This document shows, in pieces, positions 3,808 to 58,223 of a stretch of DNA of 64,000 nucleotides. Position numbers and translations under genes: made by a program. The stretch covers positions 1 to 64,000 of the IMG/VR virus record IMGVR_UViG_3300021338_000004. One strand, given 5' to 3'. The notes beneath the pieces are model-generated. The model worked only from the letters and a program-made list of their open reading frames with translations, had not been told where the DNA came from and made no database searches. The stretch's first letter is position 1; each line of letters starts with the position of its first letter. This stretch comes from a virus.

Positions 3808-5500
3808 GTCGACCCTCCATAAGATCGGCCACTGTGTTGTAGATGATGGTTTTAATCTCTTCCCCTGCAGCGCTATCCATCACCTGATCGTCATCGTCCG
3901 TTTCAGGCTTATTGCGATTGAATAGCTGTTTAAAGTCATCCTCCTTCATCTTCAGCATTTCAGTGAAGATGTGGTTTGAAACGTCTGGCACAGAGAAATT
4001 CTTCCATTCGGGATCCAGTATTTGCATGAGCGTAACAACAGACGTTGCAAAGTTGATTCGGCTTTCGCGGGCGCTGGCTTCCTCTTGCTCAATGGCGGTA
4101 TTGAGGGAGTTGAAGAGAATCTTCCAGGGGCGCGTTTCAGGCGTGTAAATCTTGCCGTGCTTGGCGAATACATGGATCTCAATCAGGCGATGCATCGCGT
4201 TTAAGACAGCCTGGCGTATCAGATTTGCCTTAATGGCTGCCACAACAGACATTCGGAAAAAGCCGCCTTCGCCCAATCCGCCTGCCATATCGTCCGTGAA
4301 TCCGAGTAAGGATTTATCCACGCCTAGCGCAGATGCCAACCGGTTAACGTGAAAGTTAACGTCTTCAATTGCCGATACGTCTACAGATGAGTCTTCGGTA
4401 TGAATATCCAGGCGAGCAGATCCCGTAGACATGATCGGAATCATGTGTGTATTGACGGTATTTACGTACCCCTTACTGAGGGCGCGTTTTGCTGCCGCTT
4501 CGGCTTTTCGGCGAATCTGAGAGGCCAATGTGTTGTAGTACTTGGCCATGCTGGTCGGGTCTTCTTTGCCGATATTGACGCCAACAAACCGGTCTTTTTT
4601 GGATGCATTTCGGCGTGCCAGGTTAAGTGCAAGCACCGCCTCAATTAGATCTTTCCAGGGGTCATAGGCCGTTTGTATCAGCGAGGATCCGTAGTTCTGT
4701 GTTTCGATAGGCTCTTCGTTTTCAAAATCGTCACTATCAATATCGAAATCAACTGGGCGCATTCTGACAGGTTCTATATCGGTGCGAACGGTCCAGCGAG
4801 GTATTTTTACCGGGACAAATTTCCAAGGCTGCATCAAGGGCACCATGCCACGATCTCTGGCTTGCTGGTAGCGGCTGGTATATCCCGCCAGCACGCCAGC
4901 ACGCTCATATTCTTTGACGTGGCGGGGATGGGTGTAGAAATCATGCCGGATATTAACAATCCCTTTGCCCTGTTTTACGTATGGGCGAAGGTAGGTAACA
5001 CCGAGCTTTGCGGCTTGGTATCCCCAAGCGGCGGCCTGCGCGTTAAAGATGTCTTTGAATGTGTTTCGGATATCTTCCACTACCGGATTGCTCTCATCGC
5101 CAGTAGATTCGATGAACACAACTTCCCCGGAATCTGTTCGGGCGGACAGGGCGTGCTGAACCAGCATGTTGAGGGCAGAATCTATCGTGGGATCCCGGGA
5201 CATCACCTCTAACGTCAGGTAGCCCTCTATGCGACCTAACGGAAATCCTTCGATCAGTTTTTCTCTATCTTCTTTATCGTCAGGTGTTGCACCGCCTGAC
5301 AGGTCGTTCAGATGCGAAACAATCTTATCTAACGAACTGTCAGGGCCGAACAGGGAGTCGAAGTCGTTCGTTGCGGCCAAGTTTTCGGATGAAAGATCCT
5401 GGTCGTCGGGCGAAAACCCAGGGAACAGGCTTGAGAGCTTATCTATCCAGCCGCGTTTTTTGGTTTTTGCTTTTGATGTGTCTTCGGTCATTGGTCGCAC
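3797..5500 (-). CDS. prt: Portal protein (P1 Prt-like)
   Basis: YLTLEVMSRDPTIDSAL, ETQNYGSSL, GGLGEGGFFRMS. Confidence 0.9.
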   Translation of the reverse strand: MRPMTEDTSKAKTKKRGWIDKLSSLFPGFSPDDQDLSSENLAATNDFDSLFGPDSSLDKIVSHLNDLSGGATPDDKEDREKLIEGFPLGRIEGYLTLEVMSRDPTIDSALNMLVQHALSARTDSGEVVFIESTGDESNPVVEDIRNTFKDIFNAQAAAWGYQAAKLGVTYLRPYVKQGKGIVNIRHDFYTHPRHVKEYERAGVLAGYTSRYQQARDRGMVPLMQPWKFVPVKIPRWTVRTDIEPVRMRPVDFDIDSDDFENEEPIETQNYGSSLIQTAYDPWKDLIEAVLALNLARRNASKKDRFVGVNIGKEDPTSMAKYYNTLASQIRRKAEAAAKRALSKGYVNTVNTHMIPIMSTGSARLDIHTEDSSVDVSAIEDVNFHVNRLASALGVDKSLLGFTDDMAGGLGEGGFFRMSVVAAIKANLIRQAVLNAMHRLIEIHVFAKHGKIYTPETRPWKILFNSLNTAIEQEEASARESRINFATSVVTLMQILDPEWKNFSVPDVSNHIFTEMLKMKEDDFKQLFNRNKPETDDDDQVMDSAAGEEIKTIIYNTVADLMEGRHEA

Positions 5501-26499: not shown

Positions 26500-27558
26500 T
26501 CAGCGATGCTGCACGAACAGTGACCATGCCTCTTCAAAGCTTTTCGGGCGCGTATCTTCACAATAATCTGAAAAAGCCTGGATTACAGAGTCCAGAGTGT
26601 AGTGCAGAGTATCAATACCTTTCAGCTGATGCATTGGCCGCTTTCTAAGCTCTTTCGCCAGTTCGGATACCGATGGTCGATCATCGCCAGGCTCAACGCC
26701 CGGCAGTACCTGCTGATCTTCATTGAATGGCTGGCGTGCCGGTGGCGCATCATCATTACCCTCTGCGCCTTCAGTATCACCCTTGTAATATTTGTCATCG
26801 GAAAAGAGCGACCCGCCATTGCGAAATTCTTTTACCTTCTTACGCGCTTCTGAAATTGTTTCGCGCAATGGGGTTTCCAGTGTGCCGTCTTGTGCACTCT
26901 TGGATATTTCCTGAGCTGCCGCTGGGTCTTCCTTGTGCAGTTGAATTAAATTATTCAGGGCATTAACGTCGGCTACCCCCTTTTGACTCGCCAGCTCTTG
27001 GACTACGTCAGGGGCCCTCAGAATTGAGAGGCGTTTGGACAGCCATGCAGGTGATCGACCTAGCTGCGTGGCAACATCCTGCTTATTTCGCCCCAACGCC
27101 TTGAAACCTTCCACCAGCGACTGCAAAGCCTCTGCCAATTCAATAGGGGGGAGTTCTTCGCGTTGCTCATTCTCCACAATTTGTGCGGCAAGCTTGCTTA
27201 AACGGTCTTCTGGCCTCTCTACAATCGCGCGAACGTTGCGACCGATGCTGGAGCAGGCCCGCCAACGCCGTTCCCCTTCGGAAATGATGTAGATGCCGTT
27301 AACGGGTGGGCTAACTACGATGGGCTGGCGCTGCTTATTTGCTCGAATGGATGCCGCCAGTTCGCTGATAGATTCTTCCGTGAACGTCTTTCGGGGCTGA
27401 TCAGGGTCGGGCTGACAAACATCGGGGGCGAGTTCGAGAACGCGATTCTCATCTACCAGCGCCTCATTCGCGCCAGTGGAGAGCATGCCCATCAGGTTTG
27501 AGTCAGCACCGGGCGCACTTCCCAACCCGCTCAGGTTGATGCCCTTGCCCTGTTTCAT
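26500..27558 (-). CDS. parB: ParB (Spo0J/KorB-type CTPase)
   Basis: PDQPRKTF, QPIVV, GERRWRA, ENEQRE, HTH VATQLGRSPAWLS. Confidence 0.93.
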   Translation of the reverse strand: MKQGKGINLSGLGSAPGADSNLMGMLSTGANEALVDENRVLELAPDVCQPDPDQPRKTFTEESISELAASIRANKQRQPIVVSPPVNGIYIISEGERRWRACSSIGRNVRAIVERPEDRLSKLAAQIVENEQREELPPIELAEALQSLVEGFKALGRNKQDVATQLGRSPAWLSKRLSILRAPDVVQELASQKGVADVNALNNLIQLHKEDPAAAQEISKSAQDGTLETPLRETISEARKKVKEFRNGGSLFSDDKYYKGDTEGAEGNDDAPPARQPFNEDQQVLPGVEPGDDRPSVSELAKELRKRPMHQLKGIDTLHYTLDSVIQAFSDYCEDTRPKSFEEAWSLFVQHR

Positions 27559-28472
27559 ACCATGATCTCCATGATCTCCTGCGTAAATCCTTGCACTTGT
27601 TCGGCAGCCTTCCCGCGCTTATTTAGCTCTATGACTGAGCAACCCATTCCCTGTGAGTCCTCATAGTCCATGAAGCGGGTAATCATGTTTTTCATGATTG
27701 GGATATCGAAAGCGCTACCCAGTTCCTTTGCGGCGTTGGCGCTATCTTTCTGTCGATTTTCTTGTGGGTGCTGCCGGCTAAGAAACATGAATGCATTTAC
27801 CGGTGCGCCTTCGCTGCGGCGCTTTTGGATAAACTCCAACAGGTGAAAACTTCCCCATGCATCAACCGACCCCGTCCCGAACGGCACCAAAATTAATCCC
27901 GGGTTATCAGGGTTGGACGCGGCAAGGATACCGCTGATGGTGATGTCTCGCGCTACAGCAGCACCATCGATAAACACAAAGTCATTATCCTTTGCGAGTT
28001 TTTCAGCGATAAGATGCACATCGTTATGCGGGTGATGTATCACTTCGGGCTGAACGCTCTCTTCTCCACCAGCTCGACGCCAGCACAAAGCGGACGCCTG
28101 TGGGTCGGTATCAAGGATTACGACCGAATAGCCCAAAAGCTGTACGACACGCGCCACATTGACGCATGATGTGGTTTTACCGGCTCCGCCTTTAGGGTTC
28201 AGCCAAGCTATGATTTTTCCCATGGGTAATTTCCTGCCTTTACCTTTTTTGTAACGTGACATGTCACGCTTCATGAATTCTGGACCTTCGTAGTACATCA
28301 ACGTCCGTATGTGTGCGGAAACCGTGCCGGATACAGGGTTCCCCTTTACATATCCTCTATGCGTTTCCGGGCTAATGCCGAGGCGTTCAGACCACTGCGG
28401 GACCGTCAGCCCAAGCATTTGGCGGGCGTCTTTGTACTCTTGCGTGCTTAAAAGGGTCTTTTTTGTACTCAT
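27555..28472 (-). CDS. parA: ParA Walker-type ATPase with N-terminal XRE-like HTH; possible internal start at 28223
   Basis: NPKGGAGKTT, DTDPQAS; N-terminal ARQMLGLTVPQWSERLGISPET. Confidence 0.9.
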   Translation of the reverse strand: MSTKKTLLSTQEYKDARQMLGLTVPQWSERLGISPETHRGYVKGNPVSGTVSAHIRTLMYYEGPEFMKRDMSRYKKGKGRKLPMGKIIAWLNPKGGAGKTTSCVNVARVVQLLGYSVVILDTDPQASALCWRRAGGEESVQPEVIHHPHNDVHLIAEKLAKDNDFVFIDGAAVARDITISGILAASNPDNPGLILVPFGTGSVDAWGSFHLLEFIQKRRSEGAPVNAFMFLSRQHPQENRQKDSANAAKELGSAFDIPIMKNMITRFMDYEDSQGMGCSVIELNKRGKAAEQVQGFTQEIMEIMV

Positions 28473-28560
28473 ACATAGCGCCAAAGGGGTATATATTACC
28501 CTTTTCATTAAATCGATTTTTATAATAGGGTTATATTTACCCTTTTACAAGAAAGATATA

Positions 28561-28584
28561 AAAAAAGGGGCTATTGCCCCTTTT
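28561..28584. terminator. Terminator after bplA
   Basis: AAAAAAGGGGC-TATT-GCCCCTTTT. Confidence 0.7.
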
Positions 28585-28608: not shown

Positions 28609-30012
28609 TTAGTAGCTCAGTGACAATGCGCTCCGCGTTTCTGCCTCATTCATAAACACCATCTGTCGAAGGTTTTGTGGCTCTGCCGTACCATCAATAG
28701 AGATAGGCAACGAAGCCCCGGGCTCAAAAATATTTAGGGCCATCAGTATTCCATACACATCCTGAATCAAGATGGCGCTTTTGTGCTGTTTGTCACGACT
28801 ATCCTTTCCATAGTGACGCCCCAAGGCGTCCATAATCTTTTCTGTAGCATCGCTGATCCCAATGTCACGCCTGAGCTTGCCGTTAATAGCGATTGTGCAC
28901 GGCTGCTCATCTGGGGGAAGCCAAGCGAACTTGGTGTTCACATCCTTTACGCCCGTTCGAAGCGTCCCCAGAACAGTAGCGTCCAAGCCTTCCATACCCG
29001 GCGCATACGCCGACACAAAGATCGTGTTGATATTCTTTGCATCAACCACGCCGGTCATCTGTTCCTGCTCTTGCTCACCCCAAACCGCCAGCCAAAGAAT
29101 TGCGGGATGCTTTCGACGGATAAAAAATTTAAAATCCCTTTCCCATACCTGGTCTTCGTCATACAGAAAATAGTAAAGCGCATTGCGGCGCAGCGTCTCC
29201 GTATCTTCAACGGGTTGCCCTCCGGTGATGCTGGTGGCGGTTTCCAGCTCCAGCCCTTCGGCTGACTGATCCAGTATTGCGAGCGGCTGGTTAGGCAGCA
29301 GCGTCGTATCCCCGTCTGTCAGGCTAAGCTCAACTTTTACCTGGGAGTGAAGCGCCGGGATCTTGCCGTAAATACCGTTACCAAAACGGATACCAAGCTG
29401 ATCGGTAAATCGGTAGTGCTCGTCATACACCCGGCTTTCTTCGTTGGTGTTCACAAAGCGCCGTGCCGCCGTCCATTCAGACATCTCCCCCTGCTCACCA
29501 TCGCTGACAAAGACGCGCATTTCAGATACTGAGGCGCTGTACTCCTGCTCCAAAAGGAATTCAAGGAATGGCTTGGTCTCAGTTACCGTAAATGTCACGG
29601 TTTTCTTGCTGATCTGGACCAGATCAACCACTACCGTTTCGCCTGGTGGCACCGTAACGCTGTCGATCGGCATATAGATACGCTGATCGTCTGAAATAAG
29701 CGGCGTCCAAGACAGCAGCGACCGCACGACGCCAGATGCATTCCGCACCCTGAGCTTGCCTGTAGCCGGTGTGGCTTTGCGCTGGATATACAGTCGATCT
29801 TCAGCACCTGCCAGGATAGACGATCGATCCAACGCCGTAGACATGCGGGATTCTTGCCGTTCCCGCTCTACGTTCTGCAGCAATGCCTCAGTGTTAAGGT
29901 TTAAGAAGCGATTTACGCCATCCAAAAACTGCGACCCGACCAAGTCGCGCAGCTCTGGATCCGCTCCAGCGATCTCATTAAACAGGCGATAGCCTTGTAG
30001 CTTATGGTTCAT
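28609..30012 (-). CDS. bplA: Baseplate protein BplA-like
   Basis: RSSILAGAEDR.Y, QLGIRFGNGIYGKIP, WLAVWGEQEQE. Confidence 0.85.
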   Translation of the reverse strand: MNHKLQGYRLFNEIAGADPELRDLVGSQFLDGVNRFLNLNTEALLQNVERERQESRMSTALDRSSILAGAEDRLYIQRKATPATGKLRVRNASGVVRSLLSWTPLISDDQRIYMPIDSVTVPPGETVVVDLVQISKKTVTFTVTETKPFLEFLLEQEYSASVSEMRVFVSDGEQGEMSEWTAARRFVNTNEESRVYDEHYRFTDQLGIRFGNGIYGKIPALHSQVKVELSLTDGDTTLLPNQPLAILDQSAEGLELETATSITGGQPVEDTETLRRNALYYFLYDEDQVWERDFKFFIRRKHPAILWLAVWGEQEQEQMTGVVDAKNINTIFVSAYAPGMEGLDATVLGTLRTGVKDVNTKFAWLPPDEQPCTIAINGKLRRDIGISDATEKIMDALGRHYGKDSRDKQHKSAILIQDVYGILMALNIFEPGASLPISIDGTAEPQNLRQMVFMNEAETRSALSLSY

Positions 30013-33622: not shown

Positions 33623-33699
33623 GGAAGAGTTCTCACATTGAAGTCATTATCGTGTGAGAGTGTATGCAGCCGGACAGAGCCCGGCAGCAACACATTTTT

Positions 33700-38669: not shown

Positions 38670-40244
38670 TTAGTCAACAATGCGCAACCAGGTAAACCAG
38701 GAACGCCCGTTTTTCGGGTGAAGATCACGGTACGCCAGGTCATACAGGGTGTTTTTGTGCTTCAGATCGGCCTGGATGCTGTGCGGGAAGTTGATCATGG
38801 TGATAGCATCACCGGCCACGAAGCCGGCATCACCGTGGCTTGCGCCTTTTGCGTAACAGAAAACGCCCCATGGATCATCCATGTATGGGTCTTCTTTGAA
38901 GACATAGCCGAATGCGGTGCCGACCAGGTGCGGCTGTGCGATGTGACGGTATCCAGGCACTGTTTTCACAAAAGGATGTCCCAGCGAGCGCAGCAGGGCA
39001 GCGGCTTTACCACCACATACCATGCCGACCATGCCTGATTTACGTGTTGCCAGCATCAGCTTCTGACTGATTTCCTGGAACTTCACGTTCAGGCTCTGAT
39101 AATGCTCGCGGTAATTCAGACCGCTCGGAATGCCACGGCTCCACTCTGTCTCGCCCTTGGCAAAGAAGTACATGGCCATAAGGCGATTGCGATCGCGCTC
39201 TGATGCCAGGACATTGCGAGATGCGCTCAGGTTCATCTGGCCCAAATTCATACCAAACTCTCGGCCCATGCTGAACTGCGCCTGGATTGTGGAGCTACAG
39301 CCCAGAGCAGATTCATGCGGGCGCAGAGTCCAGGACTCCATGCGGTGCTCGATACCCGGGATCAGCGACGGGTCGCTTTCAATATTGATGTCGAAACCAA
39401 AGTGCACGTCCAAGCCGGATGCGACACCGGTCGAAAAGTCCGTTGTGATACCGCCGTCTTCGTAGGCAACCGTGCCGGTCAGTACGACTGTGTCACCATC
39501 ACCATTTACATAACGGCCAAAAATACCGCCTTTACCGTCATCCGAGCCGACCAGTTCGCGGTCGACATACACCATGACCATATTCGGCTTAAATGGCATT
39601 TTCTTGCCCAGATCAGTGGTGCTGGACAGGGTGAACTGCTTTTTGGTGCCATCACCCGTGCCCACCAGGCGGCGCTGGTCCATGGTGCCGTACTGCTTAT
39701 TGAAGGTTTCGTCGATGACATCGCCTTTTTTCATGTCACCGAAGTCGGAATTGGCGTGGCGTGTCAGCGCAAACAGTTCGCTTTTGTCATAGTTACCCGG
39801 AATGGTGGTGACCATGTCGTTCGTAACCATCATCAGCGCTGTTGGCACAATCAGCGCGACGCGGTGGTCGCGTAGCTCAACACCTTCGCTGGTGGACAAC
39901 GGCGCACCTGCGGAGTCGAGGATTTTACCGAGCTTATTGTCGTCCTGTGGCGCCAGCTGGCTGCGCAGCTGTGAATGCATAGAGGACATCAACTCGCTCG
40001 ATGGCAGCTGGCCGTCATGTGCATCACGGTAGCTTTCCAGCGCGTTGATTGTGCCCAGGAGCAGAGATGGGCCTTTGTCGCCCGCGCCATCAAAAATGGT
40101 CTCTTTGCATTTGCTCTGCACGATGCCAGGCCATTCAGCGCGCGGCGCGCCATCTACAAGACCCAGCGTCTGCGCGTACATTGCCTGGGCGCTTTCCTGC
40201 AGAAATGCTGTGCGGTCCAGGTATTTAGAGATATCGGTTGTCAT
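38670..40244 (-). CDS. Major capsid protein (P1 gp23-like)
   Basis: DINIESDPSLIPGIEHRM, REFGMNL, AGFVAGDA, DLHPKNG. Confidence 0.9.
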   Translation of the reverse strand: MTTDISKYLDRTAFLQESAQAMYAQTLGLVDGAPRAEWPGIVQSKCKETIFDGAGDKGPSLLLGTINALESYRDAHDGQLPSSELMSSMHSQLRSQLAPQDDNKLGKILDSAGAPLSTSEGVELRDHRVALIVPTALMMVTNDMVTTIPGNYDKSELFALTRHANSDFGDMKKGDVIDETFNKQYGTMDQRRLVGTGDGTKKQFTLSSTTDLGKKMPFKPNMVMVYVDRELVGSDDGKGGIFGRYVNGDGDTVVLTGTVAYEDGGITTDFSTGVASGLDVHFGFDINIESDPSLIPGIEHRMESWTLRPHESALGCSSTIQAQFSMGREFGMNLGQMNLSASRNVLASERDRNRLMAMYFFAKGETEWSRGIPSGLNYREHYQSLNVKFQEISQKLMLATRKSGMVGMVCGGKAAALLRSLGHPFVKTVPGYRHIAQPHLVGTAFGYVFKEDPYMDDPWGVFCYAKGASHGDAGFVAGDAITMINFPHSIQADLKHKNTLYDLAYRDLHPKNGRSWFTWLRIVD

Positions 40245-40297: not shown

Positions 40298-40332
40298 GCG
40301 AATCTAACAACCCCCGAAAAAGGGAACATCAA
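40298..40332 (-). promoter_or_regulatory. Putative late promoter (capsid operon)
   Basis: TTGATGTT-N18-TAGATTCGC; twin of 45696-45730. Confidence 0.55.
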
Positions 40333-44753: not shown

Positions 44754-45403
44754 TAACCCTCTCCATTCAGGCGTTTGGCGAGCTGCTGATCTACACCAAT
44801 GGTGATTGCATACAGCGATGGCGGGATTGCAGGCTCTGAACGTATTCCAATGGCGTCCATGAATTCACCTATGTATCGATCACTCATCTGGTGCATCACA
44901 GGTCCGGCCAGAATACTAAGCAATATGCAGCGCTGTTCGGAGCTGAACGCACTGTGATCCATCCGGTAACGATTGCGCCCTTTCTCATCTTGCTCAACGT
45001 CCAGGGTTTCATCACTGAACCAGGAGGATTGCAACGACCCCGCCAGGATAATGCGCCCTCGCTGACTGCCTTTTTTCTCGCCCATATTGGTCAGCGAGGT
45101 GTAATGATCCAGTGCGACATTCAGAAAGGTACGGCCCTCTTCGGCGTAAACTTCATCAAATCCGAGGCAGAAACCGTATTCCTGGAATGTCTGGGTGCGG
45201 TCTTCGATCAAAATATCGAAGCCATCGGCAGCAGCCTTCTTTAGATCGTCTATCAGGCGTGGCTTCCACGACATAAACATGCCTGAAATAGGTTCTGCTT
45301 TTGCCACTGTGAGCATATCGCCATCGTATACGGCATAGGCCTTCATGCGACGGGATCCACCCAAGCTAACAACCAGTAGTTTTTTCATCGAATCCCGCCT
45401 CAT
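44753..45403 (-). CDS. Possible Mat-like (particle maturation) protein
   Basis: Recalled similarity: LVVSL..GFDILIED..G+TFL..DEKG. Confidence 0.5.
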   Translation of the reverse strand: MRRDSMKKLLVVSLGGSRRMKAYAVYDGDMLTVAKAEPISGMFMSWKPRLIDDLKKAAADGFDILIEDRTQTFQEYGFCLGFDEVYAEEGRTFLNVALDHYTSLTNMGEKKGSQRGRIILAGSLQSSWFSDETLDVEQDEKGRNRYRMDHSAFSSEQRCILLSILAGPVMHQMSDRYIGEFMDAIGIRSEPAIPPSLYAITIGVDQQLAKRLNGEG

Positions 45404-45596
45404 AAATCGTCACCACTGCTTTTTTCCCATGCTCCTTATGGAATGCATCAGCCTGTTTTATCAGCGCTTCCCGAACGGTTTTGCGCTGCCTGACGGGCAC
45501 CTGGCTTTCATCCAGTCTCAGAAGCAGTAGTTGGTCATCGTAGTGCTCTACCCAAAGGGCACGGTAAATGATTTCTCTGCCATCAATGAGCGGCAT
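45366..45596 (-). CDS. Hypothetical protein
   Basis: GGGAG RBS; first gene of the late operon. Confidence 0.55.
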   Translation of the reverse strand: MPLIDGREIIYRALWVEHYDDQLLLLRLDESQVPVRQRKTVREALIKQADAFHKEHGKKAVVTIYEAGFDEKTTGC

Positions 45597-45695
45597 GCTC
45601 TGCTCCCTGCGTTAATTTGGTTTCATCCAGGCACAAGGGTGCACACGAACCAAAGGGCATGCATCAACACGTTTTTTTTGTCTGATATTTTTTTT

Positions 45696-45910
45696 TTGAT
45701 GTTTGCTGGTGGAGAGATATGTAGATTCGCAATCGTTCTTGCTTGGGTGCGCCGGCTGAAATGCTGAAGATCATGAAAGGCGCGCATCAATCAGTAATGC
45801 TGGTTGGCTTCACATACCCTGCTGCGAGTACTCAAAACCTACTTCAGGTTCAGGTTTAATCCCGCTCTGTTACACGACGTTCTTACCGGCCCCAAGGGCC
45901 GGTTTTTTTT
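45696..45910 (+). ncRNA. Putative late-expressed small RNA (or 32-aa peptide mRNA), including promoter and terminator
   Basis: Promoter matches the capsid promoter at both boxes; plus-strand terminator ACCGGCCC-CAA-GGGCCGGT-T7. Confidence 0.5.
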
Positions 45911-45919
45911 GCCTAAATA

Positions 45920-46318
45920 TCACGCTTTGATGAAGTCTTGCGGCCCTAAGTGGGTAACCGCGGCAGTATAGATGGGCTCAGCCCCAAAGCAGACATCGTT
46001 AAGCATGTCGCTAAATATCTGTATTGTTGCTTCTTTGGATATCGGGATTTCATGCCGGAACTGACATAGCACGTCATGAACCAAGCTAGCATCGTGTGTG
46101 ATTCGCTTGCCTTCATGCATGCGCCCGTCAGGCGTGCCAATCACAAACAGACCCAGGACATCATACTTCGGCGAACATCCGTCCCATGCATAACCGGTTC
46201 TAATTGTTATTTTCCCATGGGAAATTGAGCACCACTCATTGTGATGCTCAATACCCTCAAGCAACGGGTGCTTAAAGGTTTCTGGCTCCTTCAGTTTGTA
46301 TAAATAAACCTTCCCCAT
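45920..46318 (-). CDS. DUF1353-like protein
   Basis: GYAWDGCSP..ASLVHDVLCQ. Confidence 0.7.
   Translation of the reverse strand: MGKVYLYKLKEPETFKHPLLEGIEHHNEWCSISHGKITIRTGYAWDGCSPKYDVLGLFVIGTPDGRMHEGKRITHDASLVHDVLCQFRHEIPISKEATIQIFSDMLNDVCFGAEPIYTAAVTHLGPQDFIKA
46211..46224. promoter_or_regulatory. parS-like palindrome (intragenic)
   Basis: TTTCCCATGGGAAA. Confidence 0.7.
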
Positions 46319-50629: not shown

Positions 50630-50758
50630 GTTCCCCTGTATGAGCTATGTCAGGATGATAAGCAGGGGATGCCATTGCCGAATCAAAAATTAAATATTGT
50701 TACGACTCATGTTGCCGTTCGATAGATTGCCTTTTCCTACTTCACTATTTGGTCATTT

Positions 50759-57701: not shown

Positions 57702-58223
57702 ATGTTGATTTTGACCCGCCGAGTTGGCGAAACACTGATGGTTGGCGATGAGGTATCCGTCACCGTGCTTGGCGTTAAAGGAAACCAGGTTCGAATCGGG
57801 GTTAATGCCCCCAAAGATGTGCCCGTGCACCGGGAAGAGATCTATCGCCGGATTCAGGATGGTTGCAACCAGCCACTATCCGGCACAAAGCCAAAGGGCG
57901 GCTTTAAAAAGGGAGATTATGTTTCGCTTCAAGGAACACCTATCTCCACTCCCATTCTGGATGTTGAAAAAGGCGTAGACGGTACGCTCACTCTTGGGGA
58001 CGGCTCAACCGCGAAAGCCAGTCAATGCACCCTGCTCTGGCGACCATTCAAGATGGGCGATATGTCAGTAACGCAGCCCGGCAACCAGCGCCACGCAATC
58101 GCTAACCAACGCGACATTGATAGCGGCAATAAATTCGATCAGGGATTGGGCTCATTCCCGCTTGTGCATGAAAACACGTCATGGCGTGGAAGCCCTAAAT
58201 GGCAAAGCACGGCGTGTCGCTGA
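57702..58223 (+). CDS. csrA: CsrA/RsmA homologue with a C-terminal extension of about 120 aa
   Basis: [30 protein letters not shown]. Confidence 0.92.

What the first reader, a model, noticed from the sequence alone, without database searches (positions are those of the whole stretch)
45696..45910. Isolated plus-strand transcript of about 175 nt driven by a twin of the capsid promoter
Within about 40 kb of minus-strand genes lies TTGATGTT-N18-TAGATTCGC, matching the major-capsid promoter (40298-40332) at both boxes. It is followed about 175 nt later by a terminator whose U-tract works only on the plus strand. The interval contains only a 32-codon ORF (45761-45859) with no clear Shine-Dalgarno sequence, plus stems (45743-45790 and 45835-45857). 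Inference: an abundant late non-coding RNA, perhaps for packaging, decoy or regulation. I know of no such RNA described for P1.
Basis: partly seen in the sequence, partly recalled or inferred. Interest (0 to 1): 0.75.

Follow-up and report, generated by a model that had tools for sequence, protein, structure and literature searches.

The report
Orphan late-promoter small transcript unit
An uncultured marine relative of phage P1 carries, alone on the opposite strand inside its 40-kb block of virion genes, a phage-type late promoter followed about 177 bases later by a strong terminator; this predicts a short RNA, or a tiny 32-residue protein, of unknown role that is found in no relative.

Summary
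TTGATGTT-N18-TAGATTCGC occurs exactly twice in the 77-kb genome: upstream of the major capsid gene (40298-40332, minus) and at 45696-45730 (plus). No shuffle gave a match. It is not a sigma-70 promoter, because the spacer is 20 nt. It belongs to a promoter class (A/T tract, GTTG[A/C]TG, N20, yAnnnT) that precedes late operons here and is conserved upstream of the capsid gene in two of three relatives with 38-53% identical proteins. A matrix built without the twins ranks the plus-strand site 9th of about 154,000 positions. The genome's strongest intrinsic terminator (45885-45903 plus a T-run) follows, and it is the only one facing against the late block.

A discrete RNA of about 177 nt is therefore well predicted, but it is not shown: no RNA data exist.

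The host phage is not P1. Its capsid is 28% identical, it has no Lpa homologue and it uses a different promoter type. The unit has no homologue in relatives, Rfam or sampled genomes. In relatives the same junction holds opposite-strand cargo, including three different type II toxin-antitoxin families.

Whether the product is RNA or protein is unresolved. The fold is no more stable than shuffles and the ORF has no Shine-Dalgarno sequence. Against that, the 32-codon ORF has gene-like codon usage.

This is a plausible new orphan phage sRNA or micro-gene of moderate interest.

The parts
45696..45730 (+). Plus-strand promoter of the phage's late class. The upstream box TTGATGTT is at 45696-45703 and the -10-like TAGATT at 45722-45727, followed by CGC. 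It is an exact two-box twin of the capsid promoter.
   Evidence: two exact copies, none in shuffles; ranked 9th of about 154,000 positions by a matrix built from 7 other class sites; not a sigma-70 consensus match.
45670..45695 (.). A/T-rich tract (T8 and T10 runs) shared by the two back-to-back promoters. A/T-rich tracts lie in the same place upstream of other class members.
   Evidence: Sequence; class members listed.
45636..45668 (-). Divergent minus-strand promoter of the same class (GTTGATG-N20-CACCCT) for the p76/p216 baseplate operon. Its upstream box lies 27 bp from the plus-strand box.
   Evidence: The orthologous position upstream of the p216 homologue in G001 and G002 carries GTTGCTG-N20-CATCAT.
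45734..45910 (+). Predicted transcript of about 177 nt. The start is inferred at 45732-45735, 5-8 nt after the -10 hexamer. The 3' end is inferred in the U-tract.
   Evidence: Inferred from the promoter and terminator positions. There is no expression data. Fold z = -0.15.
45761..45859 (+). 32-codon ORF (MLKIMKGAHQSVMLVGFTYPAASTQNLLQVQV). It is a possible micro-protein.
   Evidence: Codon usage is gene-like. No SD. No homologue. No Pfam or PHROG family.
45885..45910 (+). Intrinsic terminator: stem ACCGGCCC/GGGCCGGT, loop CAA, then a run of eight T. It works on the plus strand only.
   Evidence: It is the strongest of about 7 intergenic terminators in 77 kb and the only one directed against the late block.
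40298..40332 (-). Major capsid gene promoter, the twin of the plus-strand site. Its upstream box, spacing and TTGTTAG are conserved in relatives G001 and G002.
   Evidence: ranked 3rd genome-wide by the independent matrix.
45366..45596 (-). p76, an orphan 76-aa gene with a good SD (GGGAG), transcribed divergently from the small unit. Like the small unit, it is absent from relatives.
   Evidence: the only other member of its cluster is a 95%-identical variant.

Best explanation
This is an autonomous short transcription unit specific to this phage lineage. It sits at the boundary between the tail-fibre module and the conserved baseplate module. A promoter of the phage's own non-sigma-70 late class (A/T tract, TTGATG box, 20-nt spacer, TAGATT) fires on the plus strand, back to back with the baseplate-operon promoter. 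RNA polymerase stops about 177 nt later at a strong plus-only terminator, so transcription does not run antisense into the tail-fibre genes. The product is most likely a small RNA that acts as RNA and is made together with the capsid mRNA late in infection. Its 3' end (GC hairpin, eight U, a U-rich stretch just upstream) is of the kind seen in Hfq-binding trans-acting sRNAs, so a host mRNA target is the likeliest. Shown here: the motif twin, membership of the promoter class, the terminator and the lack of homologues. Inferred: that the site is transcribed, the late timing, the non-coding nature and the target.
For: The exact two-box twin is unique in the genome, with 0 matches in shuffles, and its spacers are unrelated, as expected of a promoter and not of a duplication. 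The class is conserved: upstream of the capsid gene in relatives G001 and G002 (53% identical capsids) TTTTGTGTTGATG-N20-TAGCCT is kept at the same spacing. The same architecture precedes the baseplate, portal, lysis and other late operons in G000, G001 and G002. An independent matrix ranks the site 9th of about 154,000 positions. The terminator is the strongest in the genome and the only one opposing the late block. With about 7 intergenic terminators per 154 kb of strand, the chance of one within 200 nt downstream is about 0.01 (my estimate). For a non-coding product: no SD, and the best SD-like bases lie 11 nt from the ATG inside a stem. The peptide has no relative among 1.84 billion representatives and is not a called gene in 15 billion proteins. 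An ORF of 32 codons in 150 nt is expected by chance in about 1 case in 5 (my estimate).
Against: There is no expression data of any kind. The fold is no more stable than shuffles (z = -0.15), and no covariation test is possible because every recovered copy is identical and no relative has the unit. No complementarity beyond chance was found to phage translation-start regions or to the p76 mRNA. The ORF's codon usage is gene-like: it falls at the 42nd percentile of real coding windows, and only 0.17% of stop-free shuffles reach it. That favours a protein. The site has T where the 7 matrix-training class sites and the capsid site have G (TTTGATG against GTTGATG), although the tail-fibre operon promoter shares this T. 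The factor that reads this class is unidentified.
Confidence: 0.42

Rival explanations
1. The transcript is the mRNA of a 32-residue (or 28-residue, from the ATG at 45773) micro-protein, an unannotated small late gene. The layout would be a leader of about 26 nt, a 99-nt ORF, a 25-nt trailer and the terminator.
For: Codon usage of the ORF matches the phage's genes. It scores 7.7 against a coding mean of 8.8, and 0.17% of stop-free shuffles and 3.4% of stop-free off-frame windows reach its score. The ORF fills two thirds of the transcript body before the terminator. Gene callers often miss such small genes.
Against: There is no usable Shine-Dalgarno sequence. No homologue was found among 1.84 billion representatives, none in the exact look-up of 15 billion proteins, and the back-translated pattern is absent from IMG/VR. 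No Pfam or PHROG family matches. An ORF of this length is expected by chance in about 1 of 5 such stretches. In the less clean 'intergenic' null, 18% of windows reach the same codon score.
Confidence: 0.3
2. The RNA has no function of its own. The plus-strand promoter is a by-product or helper of the divergent baseplate-operon promoter: an inverted second copy of the activator box sharing one A/T tract. The terminator exists only to stop this transcription before it collides with the tail-fibre operon. Alternatively, the unit is what remains of a lost cargo gene.
For: The two upstream boxes form an inverted pair 27 bp apart around a shared A/T tract. The baseplate promoter's own -10 (CACCCT) is weak. 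The RNA has no exceptional structure, no homologue and no detectable target. The junction is a cargo hotspot in relatives, so gain and loss are frequent there.
Against: All 9 of 9 bases of the -10 box and its flank match the capsid promoter, which argues for selection on promoter strength on the plus strand and not merely on an upstream box. G001 and G002 drive the same operon without a divergent partner. Cargo in relatives uses sigma-70-type promoters, not the late class (my reading of the sequence), so a remnant would not be expected to carry a late-class promoter.
Confidence: 0.2
3. The site is not a promoter and nothing is transcribed. The twin motif is a binding or recombination site, or a coincidence.
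For: The site fails the sigma-70 consensus. The factor that would read it is unknown, and no homologue of P1 Lpa was found.
Against: No matches occurred in shuffles. The same two-box geometry is conserved upstream of orthologous late operons in relatives. A correctly oriented strong terminator follows. The central 18 nt differ between the twins, unlike the crossover cores of recombinase sites.
Confidence: 0.06

Closest known systems
Phage 'morons' (autonomous promoter-gene-terminator units between late genes, e.g. lambda bor/lom; from general knowledge)
   Same: It is a self-contained unit with its own promoter and terminator, inserted between two late operons at a module boundary. It is absent from the nearest relatives, which carry other cargo at the same junction.
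   Different: Classical morons use sigma-70 promoters that are active in the lysogen, and they encode proteins. This unit uses the phage's own late-class promoter, and its product is at most 32 aa or is an RNA.
Lambda 6S RNA (the pR'-tR' transcript of about 194 nt; from general knowledge)
   Same: Both are short RNAs of similar length, made from a late promoter and ended by a strong intrinsic terminator.
   Different: In lambda the late genes lie downstream on the same strand and Q reads through tR'. Here only the antisense of the tail-fibre genes lies downstream, so antitermination would serve no late gene.
Small regulatory RNAs of temperate phages: P1/P7 c4, P22 sar, lambda oop, prophage DicF (from general knowledge; Rfam 15 was searched here)
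   Same: Each is a small, separately terminated phage-encoded RNA.
   Different: Those RNAs lie in immunity or early regions and overlap or pair with defined targets. This unit lies in the virion block, overlaps no gene, and none of these families appears among the Rfam matches, even at E <= 10.
P1 Lpa-dependent late promoters
   Same: Both are phage-specific late promoters that lack a sigma-70 -35 element and have a TAnnnT or TACCCT-type -10 (one search shows LPpac ATGTGACTT-N4-TACCCT).
   Different: P1 uses a 9-bp box at -22, 4 bp from the -10. Here the conserved box GTTGATG lies 20 nt upstream of the -10, and tblastn finds no Lpa homologue.
phi29 pRNA (packaging RNA of about 174 nt; from general knowledge)
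   Same: The length is similar and it is phage-encoded.
   Different: No pRNA family is among the Rfam matches. This phage has PacA/PacB-type terminase genes. No multi-helix structure stands out in the fold.

Membership tests
Sigma-70 promoter | TTGACA and TATAAT-like hexamers separated by 16-18 nt | tested here: not met
   neither twin is reported. The spacer between TTGATG and TAGATT is 20 nt.
Late promoter class of this phage group | A/T-rich tract, (G/T)TTG(A/C)TG box, spacer of 20 (or 21) nt, yAnnnT hexamer, upstream of late operons, conserved in relatives | tested here: met
   The matrix built without the twins ranks the site 9th of about 154,000 positions. It has T in place of the usual G before TTG, as does the tail-fibre operon promoter at 50687.
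P1 Lpa-dependent late promoter | 9-bp box at -22 next to the -10, and an Lpa activator gene | tested here: not met
   P1 LPpac is ATGTGACTT-N4-TACCCT. There is no such box here, and no Lpa homologue by tblastn (best E 0.6).
Intrinsic (Rho-independent) terminator | G+C-rich hairpin directly followed by a U-tract on the transcribed strand | tested here: met
   8-bp stem with 7 G-C pairs, 3-nt loop, then a run of eight T, on the plus strand only.
Any Rfam 15 RNA family (the library was searched whole) | Covariance-model score at or above the family's gathering score | tested here: not met
   no match in the window; the best is Bp1_781 at 23.7 bits against a gathering score of 80, and the alignment rests on the terminator.
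Structured non-coding RNA (generic) | Fold more stable than shuffles, with covariation in relatives | tested here: inconclusive
   z = -0.15, so stability is not met. Covariation cannot be tested: the copies are identical and relatives lack the unit.
Hfq-dependent trans-acting sRNA | Terminator hairpin with a tail of 7 or more U, a U-rich stretch upstream, a seed complementary to targets, and Hfq binding | not testable with these tools
   The 3' module is present in the sequence. The host is unknown, no phage target was found, and binding cannot be tested.
Type I toxin-antitoxin | Small hydrophobic membrane peptide plus an RNA complementary to its mRNA | tested here: not met
   The peptide has no transmembrane-length hydrophobic stretch (sequence). 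There is no complementarity between the RNA and the p76 mRNA beyond shuffles.
Csr-type decoy RNA for the phage CsrA | Multiple GGA motifs in loops | tested here: not met
   There is no GGA anywhere in 45734-45912 (sequence). The phage CsrA-like gene is confirmed at 57702-58223.
Protein-coding gene | Open frame, ribosome-binding site, gene-like codon usage, conserved product | tested here: inconclusive
   The frame is open and codon usage is gene-like. There is no SD and no homologue.
Moron-type accessory unit | Own promoter and terminator, inserted between conserved phage genes, absent from relatives | tested here: met
   The promoter type and the product differ from classical morons.

The most novel reading that the evidence does not exclude
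The RNA is an abundant late non-coding RNA with a role of its own. In relatives the same slot holds three different type II toxin-antitoxin families. One possibility is an RNA decoy or antitoxin mimic that neutralises a host abortive-infection or TA defence at the time of virion assembly. Another is an RNA partner of the adjacent orphan protein p76, forming a new two-part module. Nothing tested here excludes either reading, and nothing supports them beyond position and promoter class.
Probability: 0.1. Interest if true: 0.75.

Novelty: new member of a known kind. Interest (0 to 1): 0.33.

Why it matters
If it is transcribed, this would be a phage small RNA or micro-protein expressed from the same promoter type as the capsid gene. 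Few late-expressed phage sRNAs are known, and the P1 group has none described in its virion block. The work also defines a non-sigma-70 late promoter class, different from P1's Lpa promoters, that is conserved across a group of marine and Vibrio P1-like plasmid-prophages. It also identifies a cargo hotspot at the junction between the tail-fibre and baseplate modules. Both help in annotating these phages. Without expression data or a cultivated host, however, the unit remains a prediction in one uncultured genome.

Tried and rejected
1. Close relatives for covariation. Megablast against phages found no match. Single-protein scans with p216 found only the phage itself. The exact promoter pattern in IMG/VR gave 21 hits that are unrelated to the phage. 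p132 in JGI metagenomes gave only non-syntenic hits at 36-48% identity.
The 2740-bp ENA contig that encodes a 95%-identical p76 variant could therefore not be fetched.
3. Expression: no RNA holder was listed.
4. Population variation: contigs from four seawater DNA runs are identical over the unit, so nothing can be learned from polymorphism.
5. Homologues of the unit: none in the three nearest relatives, in the Vibrio owensii genome, or in 400 sampled genomes of its class, where only chance-level hits of 17-46 nt appeared.
7. Targets: duplex energies against all phage translation-start regions were no better than for shuffles, and there is no complementarity to the p76 mRNA.
8. A 16-nt identity with the 567-aa gene (3948-3963) is sense to sense and does not extend. 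I judged it chance.
9. Late activator: the 213-aa gene in the position of P1 lpa has no PHROG family and no phage match. P1 Lpa has no tblastn match.
10. The p76 fold has a mean pLDDT of 63, too poor to search with.
11. The SD-energy comparison was not discriminating, because my gene starts were crude.
12. I guessed that the G001 cargo is HicAB. Pfam does not support this.

Full report
WHAT THE GENOME IS. The window is bases 1-64000 of a 77,175-bp IMG/VR virus record with direct terminal repeats. The same sequence is held by eight seawater metagenome runs from 2018. It is not P1. Its major capsid protein (38670-40244, minus) is 28% identical to P1 gp23, and megablast finds nothing in the phage collection. 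PacA/PacB-type terminase genes, an endolysin and a CsrA-like gene are present. The nearest relatives I could fetch are three IMG/VR records, G001 (82 kb), G002 (78 kb) and G003 (69 kb). Their proteins are 38-53% identical and syntenic. A 79-kb contig of Vibrio owensii is also related. The group therefore consists of marine P1-like phages, probably plasmid-prophages.

THE OBSERVATION. TTGATGTT-N18-TAGATTCGC occurs at 45696-45730 (+) and 40298-40332 (-) and nowhere else in the window or the genome. None of 100 shuffles gave a match. The 18 central bases are unrelated, so two separate boxes are shared at a fixed spacing. That is the signature of a protein-recognised site such as a promoter, not of a duplicated segment. 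The terminator is real and unidirectional: stem 45885-45903, 7 of 8 pairs G-C, then a run of eight T. The minus-strand reading has no U-tract. The 32-codon ORF and the stems exist. The unit is the only plus-strand feature within the minus-strand block 10638-50629.

IS IT A PROMOTER? It is not a sigma-70 promoter. The spacer between TTGATG and TAGATT is 20 nt, and the consensus scan reports neither twin. The comparative evidence is nevertheless good. Upstream of the capsid gene in G001 and G002, TTTTGTGTTGATG, a 20-nt spacer and TTGTTAGCCT are kept, while the spacer differs from that of G000. The same design (A/T tract, GTTG[A/C]TG, N20, yAnnnT) sits upstream of the baseplate (p216), portal-like, lysis and other late operons in G001 and G002. 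Recognisable variants sit upstream of the orthologous operons in G000. A position matrix built from seven such sites, excluding both twins, ranks the capsid site 3rd, the tail-fibre operon site (50687) 4th and the plus-strand site 9th among about 154,000 positions in G000. Two first-stage notes on this genome describe the same family independently. I treated them as leads, and the tests against relatives are my own. P1's Lpa-type promoters are built differently: a 9-bp box 4 bp from the -10. No Lpa homologue is detectable here. The factor that reads this class remains unknown.

LOCAL ANATOMY. The 323-bp gap between the tail-fibre operon (which ends at 45920) and p76 (which starts at 45596) holds two class promoters back to back. 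On the minus strand, GTTGATG (45668-45662)-N20-CACCCT drives p76, p216 and the baseplate genes. On the plus strand sits the twin of the capsid promoter. An A/T tract (T8 and T10) lies between them. Plus-strand transcription would start near 45732-45735 and stop in the U-tract at about 45908-45910, giving about 177 nt. Only about seven intergenic intrinsic terminators exist in the whole genome. This one is the strongest, and it is the only one that faces against the late block. I estimate the chance of finding one within 200 nt downstream of a given site at about 0.01. Together, the promoter and terminator make a discrete transcript the most economical reading.

CONTEXT IN RELATIVES. The p216-p106-p393-p186 baseplate genes are syntenic in relatives. 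What lies upstream of p216 varies.
- G002 has MazE/MazF plus DnaB on the opposite strand.
- The Vibrio owensii element has ParD/ParE-like genes on the opposite strand.
- Another IMG/VR contig has a Gp49/HTH (HigBA-like) pair.
- G003 has an endonuclease I.
- G001 has two unknown small genes.
This junction is therefore a cargo hotspot. In G000 the slot holds two lineage-specific items: the orphan p76 and the small plus-strand unit. Neither has a counterpart in the relatives. By my reading of the sequence, the cargo in G002 has a sigma-70-type promoter with an operator-like palindrome. The G000 unit instead uses the late class, so it is not simply a stripped-down TA cassette.

RNA OR PROTEIN? Evidence for an RNA:
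- There is no usable Shine-Dalgarno sequence. GGGTG lies 11 nt from the ATG and is paired in the predicted 5' stem.
- No peptide relative was found in 1.84 billion representatives.
- The ORF was never called as a gene in a collection of 15 billion proteins, although its neighbour p76 was called on 12 contigs.
- A back-translated pattern found nothing in IMG/VR.
- An ORF of this size is expected by chance in about a fifth of such stretches.
- The 3' end has the shape of Hfq-binding sRNAs (general knowledge).

Evidence for a protein:
- Codon usage is like that of the phage's genes. The ORF scores 7.7 against a coding mean of 8.8.
- Only 0.17% of stop-free shuffles of the ORF and 3.4% of stop-free off-frame windows score as high. 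A less clean 'intergenic' null reaches it in 18% of windows.

Evidence against a structured RNA:
- The fold z-score is -0.15.
- Nothing in Rfam reaches threshold. The Bp1_781 hit at 23.7 bits rests on the terminator alone.

No target emerged among phage start regions or the p76 mRNA. The RNA has no GGA motif, so it is not a decoy for the phage CsrA. A type I toxin is unlikely because the peptide has no membrane-spanning stretch.

VERDICT. The promoter and terminator reading is well supported by computation, but transcription has not been demonstrated. The 'non-coding' label and any function are open. My weights are as follows:
- functional small RNA: 0.42
- micro-protein mRNA: 0.30
- transcript with no function of its own (a by-product of the divergent promoter, or a cargo remnant, with a protective terminator): 0.20
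- not transcribed: 0.06
This is a new, orphan member of a known kind: a small autonomous accessory unit in a phage late region. Interest is moderate to low until expression is shown. The most useful by-products are the conserved non-Lpa late promoter class and the cargo hotspot.

That blocked the one available diverged copy, the ENA contig with the 95% p76 variant. No claim in this report rests on the unpublished genome G300 that one search flagged.

Noticed in passing
window 40298-40332, 33659-33691, 45636-45668, 50655-50687, about 23590, about 5520; L039 and L040 upstream of the capsid gene: A non-sigma-70 late promoter class (A/T tract, GTTG[A/C]TG, N20-21, yAnnnT) is conserved upstream of orthologous late operons in G000, G001 and G002. 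It is built differently from P1's Lpa promoters, and no Lpa homologue is detectable. The activator or sigma factor is unknown.
   Followed up: partly
L028 4730-6665; L055 4146-4674; L057 4026-4621; L029 3608-4869; L027 3949-4669: The junction just upstream of the p216 (baseplate operon) homologue is a cargo hotspot. It holds MazEF plus DnaB, ParDE-like genes, a Gp49/HTH (HigBA-like) pair, endonuclease I, or unknown small genes in different relatives.
   Followed up: partly
window 45366-45596 (-): p76 is an orphan 76-aa gene with a strong SD and no family. Its only relative is a 95%-identical variant (4 substitutions) on a 2740-bp ENA contig that could not be fetched. AlphaFold gives a low-confidence beta-beta-alpha-beta model (pLDDT 63).
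   Followed up: partly
window 45756-45771 (+) and 3948-3963 (-): A 16-nt exact identity (CTGAAATGCTGAAGAT) links the start of the small ORF and the 3' part of the 567-aa portal-like gene. It is in the same reading frame (EMLK) and sense to sense. The within-genome E-value is 0.003 and the match does not extend. It is probably chance.
   Followed up: yes
window 57702-58223 (+): A phage CsrA-like gene: the N-terminal 55 residues match PHROG 9500 at E = 3.6e-31, followed by an extension of about 115 residues. The small RNA studied here has no GGA motif, so it is not this protein's decoy.
   Followed up: partly
window 28563-28584: A bidirectional intrinsic terminator (AAAGGGGC/GCCCCTTT with T-runs on both strands) lies inside the late block, between the genes at 27555-28508 and 28609-30012.
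   Followed up: no
L055 (Vibrio owensii contig NZ_JPRD01000044.1, 79,174 bp): A contig in a cultured Vibrio owensii genome, about the size of a whole element, carries the syntenic baseplate genes of this phage group. It is a possible experimental stand-in for the uncultured phage.
   Followed up: no
G000 71317-71345 (beyond the window): A second inverted pair of TTGATGTT boxes lies around an A/T tract. The minus-strand copy overlaps a start codon (TTG ATG TTC ...). The plus-strand copy ranks 5th by the promoter matrix. It was not examined further.
   Followed up: no
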